A stretch of 8,852 bases of DNA, from positions 1 to 8,852 of the IMG/VR virus record IMGVR_UViG_2711768071_000008, one strand, 5' to 3'. This document shows, one piece after another, positions 1 to 8,852 of this stretch. Below the pieces are notes generated by a model. It searched no databases. It was not told the origin of the DNA and saw only the letters and a program-made list of their open reading frames with translations. The stretch's first letter is position 1. Each line of letters begins with the position of its first letter. Made by a program: the position numbers and the translations under genes. The DNA comes from a virus. Lineage: Duplodnaviria > Heunggongvirae > Uroviricota > Caudoviricetes.

Positions 1-35
1 CGAAACCATTTGATCATATGACAAGATGTGTATCC
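1..35 (+). ncRNA. 3' portion of IS10 antisense RNA-OUT (partial; 5' part is outside the window)
   Basis: In IS10, pOUT transcribes outward across roughly bp 115 to 47 of the element; bp 47-81 map to window 35-1 on the plus strand. The sequence CGAAACCAUUUGAUCAUAUGACAAGAUGUGUAUCC matches my recollection of the RNA-OUT 3' arm. Exact ends uncertain. Confidence 0.35.
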
Positions 36-81
36 ACCTTAACTTAATGATTTTTACCAAAATCATTAGGGGATTCATCAG
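1..81 (-). mobile_element. IS10 (Tn10-type) outside terminal end, partial; the element body lies beyond the window start
   Basis: The reverse complement of 1-81 reads CTGATGAATCCCCTAATGATTTTGGTAAAAATCATTAAGTTAAGGTGGATACACATCTTGTCATATGATCAAATGGTTTCG, which I recognise as the IS10 outside end. It contains a 10-bp AT-rich palindrome (45-54 / 59-68) and a GATC at 12-15. Recalled from memory, not searched. Confidence 0.85.
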
Positions 82-446
82 CGCTTCGCCTCTTCATCCG
101 TCACCCACTGGCTGCCATCCCAGCGCTGGTATTCTCCGTCTGGTGCAATAAATGTGCCATTTTCAGGAAGTTCCCCCAGTTCAGATATCGGGACTGCATT
201 TCCGGTTTCTGTTGAATAAACCGTTTCCCCCCGATGGTCTTCAACCAGACGCCATGAATTGTCAGCAGTATCAAACATTGCTGTAAAACCTTCGGGGATT
301 TCCGGCGGTACAATATCCGTACAGTTTGCGGGTAATCCGGTATGAGGCGGTATATAAGCGTCACCACTGCCGATAAATTCTTTTGTATCTTCAAGAAAAT
401 TAAATACACGAATGGTCCGTGCTTTATCGCTCATTTTAAAAGTCAT
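78..446 (-). CDS. Tail fibre assembly protein (Tfa / lambda Tfa / P2 gpG / P1 U family), C-terminally truncated by the IS10 insertion; 122 aa
   Basis: The translation has the conserved N-terminal chaperone motifs ([53 protein letters not shown]). Its ATG overlaps the fibre stop (TAATG at 444-448). Intact family members as I recall them are about 175-200 aa. The ORF ends at a TGA (78-80) supplied by the IS10 terminus. Confidence 0.8.
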
Positions 447-3412
447 TATGCAAGCCTCACAATATAGTTAAATGCGATGTTTTTGACGGTGTTTTCTGCG
501 TTACCAGTAGCGTTAACAGTGACGGTGTGTCCGTGTGAACCAATAGCAACAGTGTGCATATGAGCACCAATGCCGACAGTGTGCGCATGCGCACCAGCAG
601 ATTTGGTGTAAAGATTTACGGTGCCGGTACTCATATTTACTGTTTTGCCACTGCCGGCACTGACAGAAACATTTTCACCAACACCGTGATTATGACCACC
701 TGTGTTATTTGTTGATTTAGTTCCGTAGTCAAACGACGACGTGGTTTTCGTCCCCAAATCCGTACTGGATGCACTGGCACTGTGGGCGTGTGATTTAATG
801 CCGTCCTGTTCCTGAGACAATACGGCACGACCACTGGCGGGTTTGCCCTTAATCGTCCAGCCACGCATATCAGGGATCACGCCTGACGGATAAGCGGCTG
901 CAAGTTTCGGGTATGCAGATTTGTCAAAAGTCTGCCCCTGCATCAGGGCATAGCCAGACGGAACGGTATCTGATGGCCACGGGATTGGTGCGCCAGGCGG
1001 ATAAAACTGCTCTGATGGCGTATAGAGTGAATAAACTGTACCGTCCGTTAACCCTTCCGGCTTATTAGCAGAATATGCTGGTGACGTATGAATCGTCACG
1101 CTGGCATTACTGGTATAATCCCATTGAATATTTACACCAGTCGCATAATTTCCGATTGCAACGTAAATATCGTAAGTATCACCAGATGTATTAACCCAGG
1201 CAAAATTTGTAAACCCTGTCGATGTGCGCTGCCATAAAGCACCAGTAATCCCCTTCGGATTACCGTTACCTGCACGCAAAACAAGTTCAGATATACCTGC
1301 CTGTTGAGGTGACCCCACGTTAAATCCCGCGCCACCAATCAACGTAATTGAAACAACAGAACTTGCCTGCGGCATGGTTACAGTTGCCAGCTTGAACCAT
1401 CCTGCACCACCACTAAAAGACATTGTTGTGGAGTTGATTGTGCCTATAGACCGTGGGTTAAGTTCAATATCTTTAGAACCATCAAACGAAACACCGTTAA
1501 TAGTGCGCGCCGTCTGCAATCTGGTCGCCGTAGCAGCATTGCCGGAGGTATCCTGATCCCCTTTGGCATTGACGCCGGGAATTGAATCTTTTGACGTATA
1601 GACCTGCGCCCAGTCAGACCAATTGGAAGAATCAGTATCCCGCCGCGAACGGATATGTACGGGCGCATGGGCACCGCTCGTGCCGCTCCAGCCAATGAAT
1701 AACTCGCCTTCGCCAGCAGCGGTGGCACCTTTAAGGTGAAGCACATTCCCATAGGGAGAAGGGTAGCCATTGTTGTATGCCTCATACAGCTGAATCCCGG
1801 ATGTTCCCTGTGCATTCGCCTCCAGGGCCGTTACGCGACCGCGAGATACCAGAGTATTGATATTAATGTCAGCCGAACCATCGAACCTGACGCCATTAAT
1901 GTTTCTGGCTGTTTTTAATTTCGTCGTGGTGTCGGCGTTCCCCGCCAGCGCCCCGGTGATCCCACCGTTGAAAGTCTGGCGTGCACTCCATGTGTTAGCC
2001 GTGCTCAACAGGGGGATCTTTTCACCGCTGGTACCGAGTTCTCTTAAACCAAGGTATTGGATAACAGCAAGAACGCTTGTTTTGGCCAGAATATCGCGAC
2101 CGACTGACGTTAAGTCAGTCTGAGAAACAGTGTCTGTACCGGTAAAGTACGGCAATTTATTTGCACCTGTCGCAAGACCAGCAAGCGCGGTTAAAGTTGC
2201 ATCAAGTGGCTGTTTCCCTGCCAGCGCATTTGTCATTGTTGTCGCAAAGTTCGGGTCATTGCCCAGTGCTGCTGCAAGCTCATTCAGGGTATCAAGAGCT
2301 TCAGGTGATGAGCCGACCAATGCAGAGATAGCAGCCCGTACGTAAGCAGTCGTAGCGATCTGCGTATTGTTTGTGCCCTGTGCAGCCGTAGGCGCAGTAG
2401 GTATTCCCGTTAATGCAGGACTTGCTAAAGGAGCTTTAAGAGCCAGAGCATTGTTGATAGTTGTGCTGAAATTCGGGTCGTTATTGATCGCAGCCGCTAT
2501 TTCTTTCAGCGTATCCAGTGTGCCAGGCGCACCGTTGATAAGTGCAGTTATAGCTGCCTTAACAAAGGCTGTATTTGCGATCTGCGTGCTGTTTGTACCT
2601 TGCGCTGCCGTCGGCGCGGTTGGCGTTCCTGTCAGACTCGGGCTTTCTATTGGCGCTTTGGTATCAGCCAGATCTTTTATAGACTTAACAGCTTTAGGGG
2701 TAGCCGCCATTGTTTCGCTGTCGCTGTTAGTTGCGCTACTGAGCTGAACTAATCCCTTTTGCGTTGTGCTTGCATCCTGCGCCGTATACTTGCTTTTCGC
2801 CAGATCGTAGGCTTTTTTAACTGCCAGCGAACTTGCAGCAACATCACTTCTGGTACTGGTTACAGAGTCTGAAATATCAATGCCGATCGTGCGGTTGATA
2901 CGCTCGGATGTATCAATCATCTCCTGGGTAATAGCAGATACACCAGCAGGGATATTCACCGTACAAACAAGCAGCTCCCCATCACCTAACTGATATGAAT
3001 CGGTATAGATTCTGGCAACAAATTCAGCCGCATGAATATGTGACGCGGTATTCACCTGATAGGTATCTTCTCCAAGGAGGTATCTTCCCTTCAGCACAAT
3101 TGCATATTTCTTGCCTGCACTAAGTGCAAGAGAAATATCCTTACGTTGCTGAATAGTTACCTGGTAGAATTCACCAATATCCACCGACGCCGCGCCTGCG
3201 GTTTTATCACCATCCACTGAGGTGATTAACAGGTTCATCCCACCGCCAGGCTTAGGTAAGAAACCGGCATAAAATCCCGGGTCAACAATCCCCCTGAATT
3301 TTCGGTTTAGCGCGGCTGACAGATATGGTTCGTGGTATTGCACATCAGCCACCAGAGCCAACGACTCGGGTGATGGGTAAGTAACCGATGTGACAACTGT
3401 AACGTCATTCAT
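446..3412 (-). CDS. Tail fibre protein, mosaic (P2 gpH / lambda Stf-like repeats; T4 gp37 / lambda Stf-like His-rich C-terminal tip); 989 aa
   Basis: Long ORF. I place the start at ATG 3410-3412 (MNDVTVV) with an AAGGA ribosome-binding site about 9 nt upstream, because the 29 codons of the track ORF above it overlap the upstream gene. The translation contains [25 protein letters not shown], two copies of the LTG(T/I)[11 protein letters not shown]...[25 protein letters not shown] repeat, ILAK..VIQYLGL, and a C-terminus [50 protein letters not shown]. Confidence 0.9.
2039..2064. other. Serine DNA-invertase crossover site (hix/gix/cix/pix-like), 26-bp imperfect palindrome inside the tail fibre gene
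   Basis: TTCTCTTAAACCAAGGTATTGGATAA matches hixL (TTCTTGAAAACCAAGGTTTTTGATAA) at 22 of 26 positions and gix (TTCCTGTAAACCGAGGTTTTGGATAA) at 21 of 26, both sites as recalled. It has two 12-bp half-sites around a central AA and encodes the conserved VIQYLGLRE junction motif. Confidence 0.75.
2210..2659 (-). repeat. Two tandem copies of a ~225-bp coding repeat (about 75 aa each) in the constant part of the fibre gene
   Basis: Protein residues ~281-355 and ~356-430 are near-identical in pattern ([32 protein letters not shown]... versus [32 protein letters not shown]...). The DNA is visibly similar at a 225-bp offset, for example 2340-2415 versus 2565-2640. Confidence 0.7.
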
Positions 3413-3423
3413 TAAGCATATCC

Positions 3424-3858
3424 TTATGCTGTAGTCGTGTTTATGGCCATAACTGCGGTATATGTTTTGCCCACATACAGCGAGTCTTCCTGGACACAAA
3501 TAATGGCGATTGGCTTGTTCTCGTTATCCAGAACAACCAGAGTGTTGAATGGGTAGTTTTTCCCTTCCTGCAACTGGCTTTGATCAAGGTCCATTCGGAC
3601 AGTAATTATCCCACCTGAGTAGGTTGGCACGAGGTTGATGGTGCAAAATTGACTGGTCAGTTCTGCCAGATCGAAAGCCTTTGGCAGTTCTCCAATCTCA
3701 TAAGTGCCATCTCCTTTCTTAGTAACCAGCGAACTGGTACCGAAAACGGCCTTGCTGATTAAAAATCGAGAGCCTTTGTTAATGGACGATTCAGCGCGCC
3801 GCTGATAGTAATAGTCCAACAACTGACTCTTATAGAGGTTTGTTGAGACGTCAGACAT
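3424..3858 (-). CDS. Hypothetical phage protein, 144 aa, between the baseplate genes and the tail fibre (possible fibre-associated structural or assembly protein)
   Basis: Clean ORF with ATG at 3856-3858 and an AGGGAA ribosome-binding site about 6 nt upstream. Its stop lies 11 nt before the fibre start, in the same orientation as the operon. I recognise no motif. Its position matches what I recall of gene R in the P1 R-S-U operon. Confidence 0.6.
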
Positions 3859-3908
3859 GATTTTCCCTAATCAATGTTGTGAAGCCTCATTGTAAGAGAA
3901 GTAACTTG

Positions 3909-3933
3909 TCACCCCGCCCTGCGGACGGGGTGA
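3909..3933 (-). other. GC-rich stem-loop in the 78-bp intergenic spacer (possible attenuator, weak terminator or RNA-stability element)
   Basis: TCACCCCG (3909-3916) and CGGGGTGA (3926-3933) form an 8-bp stem with a 9-nt loop, starting 3 nt after the stop of the upstream gene. On the transcript it is followed by a moderately U-rich stretch (CAAGUUACUUCUCUUACA), not a clean U-run. Confidence 0.3.
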
Positions 3934-3936
3934 TTG

Positions 3937-4773
3937 TCAGGCGTCGCTATCCAGCAACAAATCATCTGCGCGTGTGCGATCAAACGTAGGTGTCGCTTTC
4001 ACAATAGTACCACCAGGCGTTGCGGTGATCGGGGCGCTAATCGACGTAACTCCAGTAAGCGAAGTTGTATCCGAAGTTTCAAACCAGCAGAATGCTTTTT
4101 CGGTATCAGAAATCTCGTTCAAAGTGATCATGTCGGCCTGTTCATTTACAACAACCGACAAATAGAGCGTAAGCCCATCAAACACTATATGCAGTGGCAG
4201 TAGAGGCTTTACGAACTGATTAAACTTTCTGAGAATTTCTTCTGTAATTGCGGACTGATCTATCGTGCCAGTAATCCCCATTGTCCGGGCCAGGTCGTTT
4301 ATGGGAATACTGATCATCCCTCTGGAAGTCAGAAACATCTCGCCGAATGTGCCGCCGGTAGTCTCCAGTGTGCTTTCTGGTATTAGAACCGTGCCATAGG
4401 GATGACGCTCAAGGTCCACCGGTGCATATATCGGATCCCATAAAACAGAAATACCGTTAAATTCGCGGTAAATTGTCTGGTTTATAGGGCGTTCAGTCCC
4501 CTTAAAGTGAATCTCATCAAGACGCTGTTGTAACAACATCGGAACGGAAGATGAGTTCGACGTTCTGATAGTAAAGAACTGGCCAAGTTCATTTGTCCTG
4601 GTCTCCAGATCCTCCTTGCTCATGGAAAAAATAGACTTCCGGTTGGTAATTCGCTCCAACCATGGGTCAACAAAGGTATCCATCATTGACTGAACCAAAT
4701 CAGCCAATGATTTATAGAGCAATGACTTTTGCTTAGCTGATGTAAGCCGGTTATTAAACCAGGAACGCTGCAT
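3937..4773 (-). CDS. Phage baseplate / tail protein I-like (P2 gpI / T4 gp7 / TssG position); 278 aa
   Basis: ATG at 4771-4773 overlaps the stop of the upstream gene (TGATG) and is preceded by GAGGAGGAG. The call rests on size and position after a J-like gene and before the fibre, not on a recognised motif. Confidence 0.6.
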   Translation of the reverse strand: MQRSWFNNRLTSAKQKSLLYKSLADLVQSMMDTFVDPWLERITNRKSIFSMSKEDLETRTNELGQFFTIRTSNSSSVPMLLQQRLDEIHFKGTERPINQTIYREFNGISVLWDPIYAPVDLERHPYGTVLIPESTLETTGGTFGEMFLTSRGMISIPINDLARTMGITGTIDQSAITEEILRKFNQFVKPLLPLHIVFDGLTLYLSVVVNEQADMITLNEISDTEKAFCWFETSDTTSLTGVTSISAPITATPGGTIVKATPTFDRTRADDLLLDSDA

Positions 4774-6206
4774 CACTCCTCCTCATACGAAATATTAAAG
4801 GTGGAGTTTTCTGTATCCAGATAAACGAAATCGTAAAAGCCGTTGGACTCATTCCACTCGACAAATTCCAGATAAAAGTCGCGGAAATAACCCAGCGTTT
4901 CGATAAATGCCCAAACGTCTTTTTTCTTGATTAGGATGTACTTGCCGACACGGTTCGGATCAAAGAAAGTTGAGTCACGCCCAAATTTTGTTTCCAGTGC
5001 CGACTTCAGCTCATCAGTCACGTTCTCAATGGTCAGGCTTGCCGATATCCGCCCGGTGATGGTGATCTTAAAGGGTAGTTTTCTGACCTCTTTATACGAG
5101 AATTTCTTGTTCAACTCATTCGGCACCTTCTTAAAGGCAGCCAGGATCATTTCTTCAAGCTCTGACTGGCTTTTGTTTGGATGCCATCCTGAAATAAATA
5201 TCTTATTGATATTCCGAACATTATAAGCACCATCTAATTTCTCTTGCTGGCCTTCGCCCCATGCCTTTACCCAGGACAGTCCCGGGATGTTACGCACCAG
5301 AAAATACGTATAGTCCCCGCCCCATACGACCTGATCATCATAGGCAAGGTAATATTGTGCACGATTACGTGTGATCTCCGTTGTTTCGGCATCGGTACCT
5401 GCGGTTATGGGTGTCGTTGTCTTAACTGAAATCAAATTAGCTAAATTAGCCGCAGAATCGACAGGCGTCAGATTTTGGCCAGCAACCAAGGTTATATCTC
5501 CGTTGGTGCACCATACCTTAAGCGTAATTGTCGAGCCTTCTGGCGGTATTTGCCCAATTAGCCCATCGCCGAATCGGACACCCAACTGTTCGGATGGTTT
5601 ATAAAACTCAACGTAGACCTGGCTTTTACTACCGGCTAACCGGAACATAGTGCTGGAAGACCACTGCGTGGTCTTACCATCGGTCGTCACGAATACTTCC
5701 AGCTTATAGCAGACAGCAGTGAGAGCCTTTGATAACACGACTTCCAGAAATTCTTTGGCTGCCGTAACGGTATATGTCACCTCCTGGATTTCCAACTGTG
5801 CCACTTCTACCGTACCGGTGCCGTCAACCAACCTGCATACATCCATAGTCATGTAAGGATACTGGTCGTCAGATATTAAAGGCATGTTTTTGGGGATTAC
5901 CGCTGGGGCATCTTCACTTGTGGCGGTGATCTCAATCATCCCCGATGACGGTGTTGGCTTGGTACCAACGTAACTATTCGTTTCTGCCGCTGCCAGGATA
6001 GAGGAACGCCGCGTCGCGGTCGATATAAAGCCTTCAGCCAGCGCCGCATCGGCATACTGAAAGCACCTGTAGACAATCTGGGTAATAAACAATGTCAGCA
6101 TCGAGACAAATTGAGAGCCGACAAACTTCGACCAGAATGAATCTTTCTCGACAAGCTCTTCAAACTCTGCACGAATACTGTCTTTAGTCGGTGTTGTTTT
6201 ACTCAT
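4773..6206 (-). CDS. Baseplate J-like protein (P2 gpJ / T4 gp6 / Mu gp47 family position); 477 aa
   Basis: Large ORF immediately downstream of the gp25/W-like gene with an ATGA start/stop overlap at 6203-6206. The assignment is by synteny of the W-J-I wedge trio; sequence motifs are not verified. Confidence 0.65.
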   Translation of the reverse strand: MSKTTPTKDSIRAEFEELVEKDSFWSKFVGSQFVSMLTLFITQIVYRCFQYADAALAEGFISTATRRSSILAAAETNSYVGTKPTPSSGMIEITATSEDAPAVIPKNMPLISDDQYPYMTMDVCRLVDGTGTVEVAQLEIQEVTYTVTAAKEFLEVVLSKALTAVCYKLEVFVTTDGKTTQWSSSTMFRLAGSKSQVYVEFYKPSEQLGVRFGDGLIGQIPPEGSTITLKVWCTNGDITLVAGQNLTPVDSAANLANLISVKTTTPITAGTDAETTEITRNRAQYYLAYDDQVVWGGDYTYFLVRNIPGLSWVKAWGEGQQEKLDGAYNVRNINKIFISGWHPNKSQSELEEMILAAFKKVPNELNKKFSYKEVRKLPFKITITGRISASLTIENVTDELKSALETKFGRDSTFFDPNRVGKYILIKKKDVWAFIETLGYFRDFYLEFVEWNESNGFYDFVYLDTENSTFNISYEEE

Positions 6207-6558
6207 AGCACCACGTCCTGTGTGATAGTTATATCCCTGATACGAATGGATATTTTCAACTTATCAAAAGCATCTCCCTCGGCTACTGACAAGCCAGAAA
6301 TCGGTATGTCAGGTAAATCTACCGTCAGTTTTTGCAACAGCATTGCCTCAACCGCAATTTGAACATGCGACAAGTTGGTCGGTTCGTGTTTAAACTGCGG
6401 TAAAACATTGCCCCATGACGGATCTCCGTATACCTCACCCTGATAAGTGTTTAGCCACTCATATAAACGAGCGCCCCAGGCCTCCTCCTGGGACTCATAC
6501 GTTTTTACGCCGGATAACTCCAGCGTCAGCAAAGGATCAATTTCGTTATTGTTGGCCA

Positions 6559-6559
<1 letters not shown>
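6203..6559 (-). CDS. Baseplate wedge protein, gp25 / GPW-like; 118 aa
   Basis: Small ORF. I prefer ATG 6557-6559 over the track's TTG at 6562; it overlaps the stop of the upstream gene (TGATG). Size and position directly before the J-like gene are typical of gp25/W/TssE-family proteins. Confidence 0.6.

Positions 6560-8852
<2,293 letters not shown>

What the first reader, a model, noticed from the sequence alone, without database searches (positions are those of the whole stretch)
1..90. IS10 outside end inserted into the tail fibre assembly gene
Positions 1-81 are, on the minus strand, the outside end of IS10 as I recall it, with the element body extending beyond the window start. The insertion junction is at 81/82, inside the codon for the last residue of the chaperone ORF. 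The flanking 9 bp at 82-90 (CGCTTCGCC) resemble the IS10 hot-spot consensus NGCTNAGCN and should be duplicated at the far end of the element. The element may be a solo IS10 or one arm of a composite Tn10, which typically carries tetracycline resistance.
Basis: partly seen in the sequence, partly recalled or inferred. Interest (0 to 1): 0.7.

Follow-up and report, generated by a model that had tools for sequence, protein, structure and literature searches.

The report
IS10 insertion splitting a phage chaperone gene
The first 81 bases of this contig are the end of the well-known bacterial jumping gene IS10, which has landed inside the tail-fibre chaperone gene of a P1-like phage-plasmid in an E. 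coli isolate; it is a real but ordinary transposon insertion.

Summary
Confirmed, and ordinary. Window 1-81 (minus strand) matches the outside end of IS10 at 81/81 bases. It is the IS10-Right type found in Tn10 of plasmid R100, and differs at 4 bases from the IS10-Left type. The window is a complete 8,852-bp draft contig of E. coli (CYGA01000059.1) carrying the P1-like tail operon sit-pmgA-bplA-16-R-S-tfa.

A sister assembly has the same DNA uninterrupted. Its identity to the window (one SNP in 8,665 bases) stops exactly at window 82, so the 81/82 junction is exact. The intact chaperone (Tfa) is 191 aa. The insertion falls in codon 122, and IS10 supplies the stop codon, so 69 residues are lost. 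These form the predicted C-terminal helical hairpin.

The 9-bp target (CGCTTCGCC) matches NGCTNAGCN at 5 of 6 specified bases and is the only such site in tfa. I predicted the ORF that would cross the far junction for a lone IS10 (inside end, 9-bp duplication, rest of tfa). That exact 78-aa protein exists (CTZ95115.1, E. coli). It sits next to accessions for the genes that follow tfa in the sister assembly. This indicates a simple IS10 insertion with a target duplication, not an arm of Tn10 at this site.

The other contig end is an IS100-like element interrupting sit. The phage is probably crippled. Novelty is nil and interest is low.

The parts
1..81 (-). Outside end of IS10 (element nt 1-81, IS10-Right type). 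The rest of the element lies beyond the contig end.
   Evidence: 81/81 identity to Tn10/R100 IS10 on the tetD side, and 4 mismatches to the gltS-side copy. The window is an entire contig.
59..81 (-). Terminal inverted repeat of the IS10 outside end (about 23 bp, CTGATGAATCCCCTAATGATTTT), the transposase binding and cleavage site.
   Evidence: The sequence is read directly. The extent of the repeat comes from established knowledge of IS10 and was not tested here.
1..36 (+). 3' half of the RNA-OUT antisense RNA gene of IS10, transcribed towards the outside end. Its 5' half and the pOUT promoter lie beyond the window start.
   Evidence: Rfam RF00240, model positions 35-70 of 70, 42.2 bits (gathering score 41), E = 7.5e-07, cut off at the 5' end.
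82..90 (.). 9-bp IS10 target site CGCTTCGCC (GGCGAAGCG on the gene strand); one copy of the target-site duplication.
   Evidence: Identity to the empty site in the sister contig starts at 82. It matches GCTNAGC at 5/6 and is the only such site in tfa. The second copy is inferred from the residues R-A-K-R in the far-junction ORF CTZ95115.1.
78..446 (-). Truncated tail fibre assembly (chaperone) ORF: Tfa residues 1-122 of 191, with the stop codon TGA (80-78) supplied by IS10.
   Evidence: Translation. The intact 191-aa allele is P0001 / L005 12967-13542. Pfam Caudo_TAP is cut at profile position 59 of 131. Annotated as CTZ95791.1.
446..3412 (-). Tail fibre gene S (988 aa). It is a mosaic of a P1-type constant part and a lambdoid-Stf-like distal part, and its product is the client of the disrupted chaperone.
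   Evidence: Gene call with Pfam Phage_fiber_2 and Collar. P1 identity starts only at window 1457. Window 216-1498 resembles lambdoid prophage stf/tfa genes at about 90%.
2042..2061 (+). cixR recombination site of the P1 C segment, inside S. The IS10 site therefore lies within the equivalent of the C segment.
   Evidence: Identical to the annotated P1 cixR region.
3424..8746 (-). Upstream P1-like tail genes: R (3424-3858), gene 16 (3937-4776), bplA (4773-6206), pmgA (6203-6562) and the 3' part of sit (6559-8746, from codon 402 to the stop after codon 1130).
   Evidence: 96-98% nucleotide identity to P1, P7 and JL22 with the same gene order. Gene calls. Position of the sit junction.
8747..8852 (+). 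Left end of an IS100-like (IS21 family) element that interrupts sit, with the istA start at 8832. The T at 8746 could belong to either the IS or the phage.
   Evidence: 95-98% identity to IS100 ends annotated with istA. The terminus TGTCACGAACGG was compared with a full copy. Identity to the sister contig ends at 8746.

Best explanation
A single 1.3-kb IS10 (IS10-Right type) transposed by the usual cut-and-paste route of the IS4 family. It landed in the tail fibre assembly gene (tfa, the functional counterpart of P1 gene U) of a P1-like phage-plasmid in an E. coli isolate. It used the only good match to the IS10 target consensus in that gene and duplicated 9 bp (GGCGAAGCG).

The window is the contig on the outside-end side of the insertion. 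The short-read assembler stopped 81 nt into the IS, presumably because IS10 is repeated in that genome.

The insertion splits Tfa after residue 122, and IS10's own TGA ends the ORF with no foreign residues added. The retained part is the beta-rich N-terminal region, which in this chaperone family binds the fibre. The lost part (residues 123-191) is the conserved C-terminal helical hairpin, which is thought to drive trimerisation of the fibre. The S tail fibre is therefore probably not assembled correctly. Together with an IS100-like insertion in sit, this means the element probably can no longer make infectious virions, although it may persist as a plasmid.

Shown here: the identity of the IS end, the exact junction, the empty site, the target match, the position of the truncation, and the existence of the far-junction ORF. 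Inferred: that one IS10 of standard length lies between the two contigs, the loss of chaperone function, and the loss of phage infectivity.
For: - IS10 end: 81/81 identity, IS10-Right type; partial RNA-OUT match.
- Whole-contig status and organism.
- Empty-site allele: sister assembly contig CYBW01000029.1 is identical over 8,665 nt apart from one SNP, and the identity ends exactly at window 82. The same intact 191-aa Tfa is found on contigs of four assemblies and one Logan run assembly.
- Target: 5/6 match to NGCTNAGCN, reached by 0.23% of positions, and unique in tfa. It also fits the relaxed consensus NRCNNNGYN. Both consensus sequences and the 9-bp duplication are as described in PMC4574204.
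- Domain loss: Pfam Caudo_TAP spans residues 72-188 and is cut at profile position 59/131. The AlphaFold model (mean pLDDT 79.6) has strands at 10-116 and helices at 118-152 and 158-176. Residues 122-181 align only weakly and not significantly (E = 0.36) with Mu Tfa 108-167, PDB 5YVQ. Domain roles are as summarised in PMC9608196.
Against: - The far junction was seen only as a protein sequence.
- That CTZ95115.1 and the window's CTZ95791.1 come from the same assembly is inferred. The grounds are the accession block and the fact that each half-ORF occurs on exactly one contig in the collection.
- The interior of the element (transposase gene, length 1,329 bp) was not observed.
- No functional data exist. 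A truncated chaperone, or the two halves acting together, might retain some activity.
- The absence of the four 'outside-end' ORFs is weak negative evidence, because gene callers might choose other start codons.
Confidence: 0.93

Rival explanations
1. The IS10 end is one arm of a composite Tn10 (IS10-Right, tet(B) region, IS10-Left) inserted in tfa, bringing tetracycline resistance onto the phage-plasmid.
For: The end is of the IS10-Right type, which forms the tetD-side arm of Tn10 in R100. The contig breaks inside IS10, which suggests more than one IS10 copy in the genome (inference).
Against: A Tn10 insertion would place an outside end at both junctions. The far-junction ORF found in the database begins with MRGSL, encoded by the IS10 inside end (ATGAGGGGATCTCTCAG). 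None of the four ORFs predicted for an outside end at the far junction exists.
Confidence: 0.03
2. A larger segment lies between the two tfa halves: two directly repeated IS10 copies flanking other DNA, mobilised through one outside end and one inside end.
For: Only the two extreme ends are seen. The contig break implies repeated IS10 sequence in the genome.
Against: There is no positive evidence for it. One outside end plus one inside end with a 9-bp duplication is the signature of a single IS10. Direct-repeat IS10 composites are rare (established knowledge, not tested here).
Confidence: 0.03
3. The junction is an assembly artefact: a short IS10 read overlap wrongly attached to the end of a phage contig, with tfa intact in the real genome.
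For: The IS10 part is short (81 nt) and sits at a contig end. Draft assemblies do produce chimeric ends.
Against: - The break falls exactly at the IS10 terminal base.
- It lies at the only consensus-like target site in tfa.
- A complementary junction with the inside end and the duplicated 9 bp exists on another contig.
- The intact 191-aa Tfa was found on contigs of four other assemblies and one Logan run assembly, but not on any contig of this assembly.
Confidence: 0.01

Closest known systems
IS10-Right of Tn10 (IS4 family; called ISVsa5 in NCBI annotation), as in plasmid R100 (NC_002134.1)
   Same: Identical over all 81 visible bases, including the terminal repeat and the 3' half of RNA-OUT. 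The target site resembles the consensus, there is a 9-bp duplication, and the far junction carries an inside end.
   Different: Here the element is a lone IS, not part of Tn10. It sits at a site not present in any complete E. coli genome or PLSDB plasmid searched. Its interior was not seen.
Bacteriophage P1 and P1-like phage-plasmids (Punavirus: P1, P7, JL22, RCS47)
   Same: The gene order sit-pmgA-bplA-16-R-S is the same at 96-98% nucleotide identity, and the cixR site inside S is identical.
   Different: - The distal part of S and the chaperone are of the lambdoid Stf/Tfa type, not P1 Sv/U.
- In the sister contig, 4.3 kb of the C segment is non-P1 DNA and cin is truncated.
- This copy carries IS insertions in both tfa and sit.
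Tail fibre assembly proteins of the Caudo_TAP family (lambda Tfa, E. coli TfaR/TfaQ, Mu/P1 gpU; Mu Tfa structure PDB 5YVQ)
   Same: Pfam PF02413 matches at E = 4.5e-32. The intact allele is 191 aa, as in most of the closest hits. The gene overlaps the stop codon of the fibre gene. The model shows a beta-rich N-terminal region followed by a helical C-terminus.
   Different: This copy is cut at residue 122. Similarity to Mu Tfa is marginal and not significant (E = 0.36).
IS10 insertion next to a truncated tfa gene in a lambdoid prophage of E. coli O126:H45 MIN10 (NZ_CP069677.1)
   Same: An IS10 outside end abuts a tail fibre assembly gene annotated as missing its C-terminus.
   Different: It is a different prophage at a different position (55 codons retained). 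The IS end is of the IS10-Left type, and the other side of the IS is a truncated PAAR-domain gene, so a rearrangement occurred there. It is an independent event.

Membership tests
IS10 (IS4 family) | Characteristic outside-end terminal sequence (CTGATGAATCCCC...) | tested here: met
   81/81 identity to IS10 of Tn10/R100, with 0 matches in 100 shuffles. 3,028 plasmid records carry it.
IS10 (IS4 family) | 9-bp target-site duplication flanking the element | tested here: met
   One copy is at window 82-90. The second is inferred from the residues RAKR in the exact-match far-junction ORF CTZ95115.1. This is evidence at the protein level, not the DNA level.
IS10 (IS4 family) | Preference for the target NGCTNAGCN (relaxed form NRCNNNGYN) | tested here: met
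   5/6 of the specified bases match and the relaxed consensus is fully met. Only 0.23% of positions score as well, and this is the only such site in tfa.
IS10 (IS4 family) | An inside end (CTGAGAGATCCCC...) at the opposite terminus | tested here: met
   MRGSL at the start of CTZ95115.1 is what the last 17 nt of IS10 encode (ATGAGGGGATCTCTCAG). The evidence is indirect.
IS10 (IS4 family) | RNA-OUT antisense RNA near the outside end | tested here: met
   Rfam RF00240 matches window 1-36 with model positions 35-70/70, at 42.2 bits against a gathering score of 41. The match is truncated by the window start.
IS10 (IS4 family) | 402-aa DDE transposase gene; element length 1,329 bp | not testable with these tools
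   The body of the element lies beyond the contig end. The other contigs of assembly GCA_001284285.1 could not be fetched.
Tn10 composite transposon | Two inverted IS10 copies, so an outside end at both junctions, flanking tetR/tetA(B) | tested here: not met
   The far junction carries an inside end. Whether tet genes are present elsewhere in the genome was not testable.
P1-like phage-plasmid (Punavirus) | P1 tail and baseplate gene block with high nucleotide identity and a cix site in S | tested here: met
   Identity of 96-98% to P1, P7 and JL22 over window 1457-8746, extending down to window 295 for JL22. cixR is identical. Replication, partition and immunity genes lie outside the window. 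P1 genes flank the region in the sister contig.
Caudo_TAP tail fibre assembly protein (PF02413) | Pfam domain match above the gathering score, with the gene immediately downstream of a tail fibre gene | tested here: met
   The intact allele scores 111.4 bits against a cut-off of 22.1. The truncated window ORF scores 31.2 bits and covers profile positions 1-59 only. The start codon overlaps the stop codon of S.

The most novel reading that the evidence does not exclude
The insertion may not fully inactivate the chaperone. It cuts Tfa almost exactly at the boundary between the fibre-binding beta-rich region and the helical hairpin, and it leaves two clean ORFs. One covers residues 1-122 with an IS10-supplied stop and no foreign tail. 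The other is a 78-aa ORF whose ATG lies in the IS10 inside end and overlaps the transposase stop codon (ATGA). [quoted passage not shown] The two halves might be co-expressed and act in trans as a naturally split chaperone, or the N-terminal half alone might alter fibre assembly or host range.
Probability: 0.05. Interest if true: 0.3.

Novelty: already known. Interest (0 to 1): 0.1.

Why it matters
The finding has little importance beyond annotation.

- The 122-aa "tail fiber chaperone" and the 738-aa "SLT" protein annotated on this contig are IS-truncated pseudogene products.
- Both contig ends are breaks at repeated IS elements.
- This copy of the P1-like phage-plasmid is probably defective as a phage. 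Closely related isolates carry the intact version, so the insertions are recent.
- It is a small, clean example of IS-driven decay of a phage-plasmid towards a plain plasmid, a process already described for P1-like elements (PMC10879196).
- There is no evidence that tetracycline resistance is linked to this site.

Tried and rejected
1. I searched complete E. coli genomes and PLSDB plasmids with window 1-1500 for the same insertion allele. No record covers 80% or more of the query. The apparent full-length hits H32 and H33 are an independent IS10 insertion in another prophage's tfa.

2. I tried to fetch the DNA of the far-junction contig through the look-up of encoding contigs, using the 538-aa neighbour, its exact-sequence id P0259, and P0262. 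A homologue search with the 538-aa protein returned only a 95%-identical representative, not the exact sequence. None of five further downstream proteins is a cluster representative. I therefore did not spend the third large search.

3. Tn10 at this site is rejected, because the far junction is an inside end.

4. An assembly chimera is rejected, because the complementary junction exists and the break lies at a consensus-like target.

5. I considered reading the lengths of the IS pieces at the two contig ends (81 and 106-107 nt) as the assembler's k-mer overlap. They are unequal, so nothing can be concluded from them.

6. A BLAST extension suggested that IS100 homology starts at 8736. Comparison with a complete IS100 shows that the true terminus is TGTCAC at 8746/8747. 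The extra matching bases are chance similarity in the flank.

Full report
**What the window is.** The window is an entire contig, CYGA01000059.1 (8,852 bp), of the draft assembly GCA_001284285.1, in reverse orientation. Its truncated chaperone is deposited as CTZ95791.1, "tail fiber chaperone; Qin prophage [Escherichia coli]". Both ends of the window are therefore assembly breaks, not biological ends.

All long ORFs lie on the minus strand. At 96-98% nucleotide identity they correspond to the tail and baseplate block of phage P1 and its relatives (P7, JL22, RCS47, Ro157c2YLVW). The gene order is sit, pmgA, bplA, 16, R, S and a tail fibre assembly gene. Identity to P1 itself begins only at window 1457. 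The distal part of S and the chaperone instead resemble stf/tfa genes of lambdoid E. coli prophages at about 90%. The P1 cixR site is present and identical at window 2042-2061. Everything to the left of it, including the site in question, therefore corresponds to the P1 C segment.

**Checking the observation.**
- The reverse complement of window 1-81 is identical at 81/81 bases to the outside end of IS10. Of 3,028 plasmid records with a match, 2,122 hold one covering at least 80% of the query.
- In Tn10 of R100 it matches with no mismatch the copy on the tetD/tetC side (L004 11001-11081), which is 1,329 bp long up to its inside end at 12329.
- It differs at element positions 24, 25, 27 and 47 from the copy on the gltS side. 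By the standard map of Tn10 (my own knowledge), the tetD-side copy is IS10-Right, the active copy.
- Rfam places the 3' half of RNA-OUT at window 1-36 on the plus strand. The match is above the gathering score and is cut off by the window start.

**The junction and the empty site.** The exact S protein of the window also occurs on a 56-kb contig of a sister assembly (CYBW01000029.1, locus L005). There the chaperone gene (191 aa) and sit (1,130 aa) are both intact.

An ungapped comparison shows window 82-8746 to be identical to L005 4667-13331, apart from one SNP at window 8225 (sit A576V). On the left, identity stops exactly at window 82. The empty site reads ...GAAGAGGCGAAGCG|TGATGCGCTG....

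The insertion is in codon 122. The native CGT (Arg) becomes CGC (Arg), with the C supplied by IS10, and the next three IS10 bases, TGA, end the ORF. The product is exactly residues 1-122 of 191, with no foreign residues and 69 residues lost.

**The target.** The 9 bp next to the IS, CGCTTCGCC, match the six specified bases of NGCTNAGCN at five positions. They fit the relaxed consensus NRCNNNGYN completely. Both consensus sequences, and the 9-bp duplication, are as described in PMC4574204. In the phage part of the window only 20 of 8,659 positions (0.23%) match at 5/6 or better. The intact tfa gene contains exactly one such site, and it is the one used. This is what a genuine IS10 transposition would look like. 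It is not what a random break or mis-join would look like.

**The far side: lone IS10 or Tn10.** I could not read the other contigs of the assembly, so I made predictions and tested them.
- For a lone IS10, the far junction would be the inside end (...TTATGAGGGGATCTCTCAG), then the duplicated GGCGAAGCG, then the rest of tfa. In the tfa frame this gives a single possible ORF of 78 aa: MRGSLRAKRDALINQ...SDFE.
- For a Tn10 arm, or any other outside end, the ORFs would begin MI(L/F)... or MCI(Y/H)....
- An exact-sequence look-up found the 78-aa protein (P0262 = CTZ95115.1, also WP_261289686.1, E. coli) on one contig of 20,923 bp. None of the four outside-end ORFs was found.
- Accessions CTZ95119.1, CTZ95122.1, CTZ95144.1 and CTZ95148.1 are the exact proteins of the 538-aa, 190-aa, odaE and darA genes that follow tfa in L005. 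That contig is therefore the continuation of the phage-plasmid beyond the IS.
- Without a target duplication the ORF would read MRGSLSDALINQ (my reading of the sequences). The observed RAKR reports the nine repeated bases.

I conclude that this is a simple insertion of one IS10, with a 9-bp duplication. Two caveats apply. The evidence is at the protein level. That both contigs belong to the same isolate is inferred from the accession block and from each half-ORF being unique in the collection.

**Likely consequence.**
- Pfam's Caudo_TAP domain spans residues 72-188 of the intact protein and is cut at profile position 59 of 131.
- An AlphaFold model built from 44 homologues (mean pLDDT 79.6) shows strands between residues 10 and 116, followed by helices at 118-152 and 158-176. 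The insertion removes the helical hairpin almost exactly at its start.
- Residues 122-181 align only weakly and not significantly (E = 0.36) with residues 108-167 of Mu Tfa, PDB 5YVQ.
- As summarised in PMC9608196, in this chaperone family the variable N-terminal domain binds the fibre tip and the conserved C-terminal helical domain mediates trimerisation and correct fibre assembly.

I therefore infer loss of chaperone function and failure to assemble the S fibre. This was not tested.

tfa is the last gene of its operon. A stem-loop followed by a run of T lies after its stop codon in L005 (my reading of the sequence), so polarity on further genes is not expected.

The transposase gene runs in the same direction as tfa. 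pOUT and RNA-OUT point into the window, antisense to tfa and S. [quoted passage not shown]

**The other contig end.** Window 8747-8852 is the left end of an IS100-like IS21-family element, with terminus TGTCACGAACGG and the istA ATG at 8832. It interrupts sit at codon 402. The annotated 738-aa "SLT" protein starts at a GTG inside this IS. With two essential morphogenetic genes interrupted, this copy is probably a defective phage that persists as a plasmid. IS-driven decay of this kind has been described for P1-like phage-plasmids (PMC10879196). The sister contig differs by a single SNP across 8,665 nt, so both insertions are recent.

**Verdict.** The open alternative is resolved towards a lone IS10. 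It is a textbook IS10 insertion into a prophage gene. It is useful for annotating pseudogenes and explaining the contig breaks, but it is already known in kind and of low interest.

Noticed in passing
window 8746-8852: The opposite contig end is the left end of an IS100-like (IS21 family) element, with the istA start at 8832. It is inserted in sit at codon 402 of 1,130. The annotated 738-aa 'SLT' ORF (6559-8775) starts at a GTG inside the IS. The contig is therefore bounded by IS sequence on both sides.
   Followed up: yes
window 446-2061: The tail fibre gene S is a mosaic. It is P1-type down to about window 1457, with an intact cixR at 2042-2061. Its distal part, together with tfa, is about 90% identical to lambdoid prophage stf/tfa genes. 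This suggests that the receptor-binding tip and its chaperone were exchanged by recombination.
   Followed up: partly
L005 11952-16269 (sister contig CYBW01000029.1): In the uninterrupted relative, 4.3 kb between S and lydC is not P1 DNA. It carries tfa, a second complete fibre gene (538 aa, phage_tail_N), a DUF4376 gene (190 aa) and an HTH_7 fragment on the same strand as S. Only the first 234 nt or so of cin remain, in convergent orientation. The invertase is broken and no cixL was seen, so the C segment is probably frozen in this lineage.
   Followed up: partly
window 8225: This is the only difference from the sister contig across 8,665 nt: T here and C there on the gene strand, giving sit A576V.
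   Followed up: yes
L001 2753-4246 (E. coli O126:H45 MIN10, NZ_CP069677.1): An independent IS10 with an IS10-Left-type outside end abuts a different lambdoid tfa gene, of which 55 codons are retained. On its other side is a truncated PAAR-domain gene, so an IS10-associated rearrangement occurred there.
   Followed up: partly
far junction (CTZ95115.1, not in the window): The ATG of the 78-aa ORF lies in the IS10 inside end and overlaps the transposase stop codon (TTATGAGG). It is preceded by GGGGAAA. This leaves a possible route for weak expression of the C-terminal helical half of Tfa.
   Followed up: no
window 8736-8752 and L006 2501-2516: The DNA just outside the IS100 left end is similar at two unrelated insertion sites (CTGTGCCGAC|TGTCACG here and CTGTGCCAT|TGTCACG in plasmid NZ_CP104504.1). 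This could be chance or a target preference of the IS21 family.
   Followed up: no
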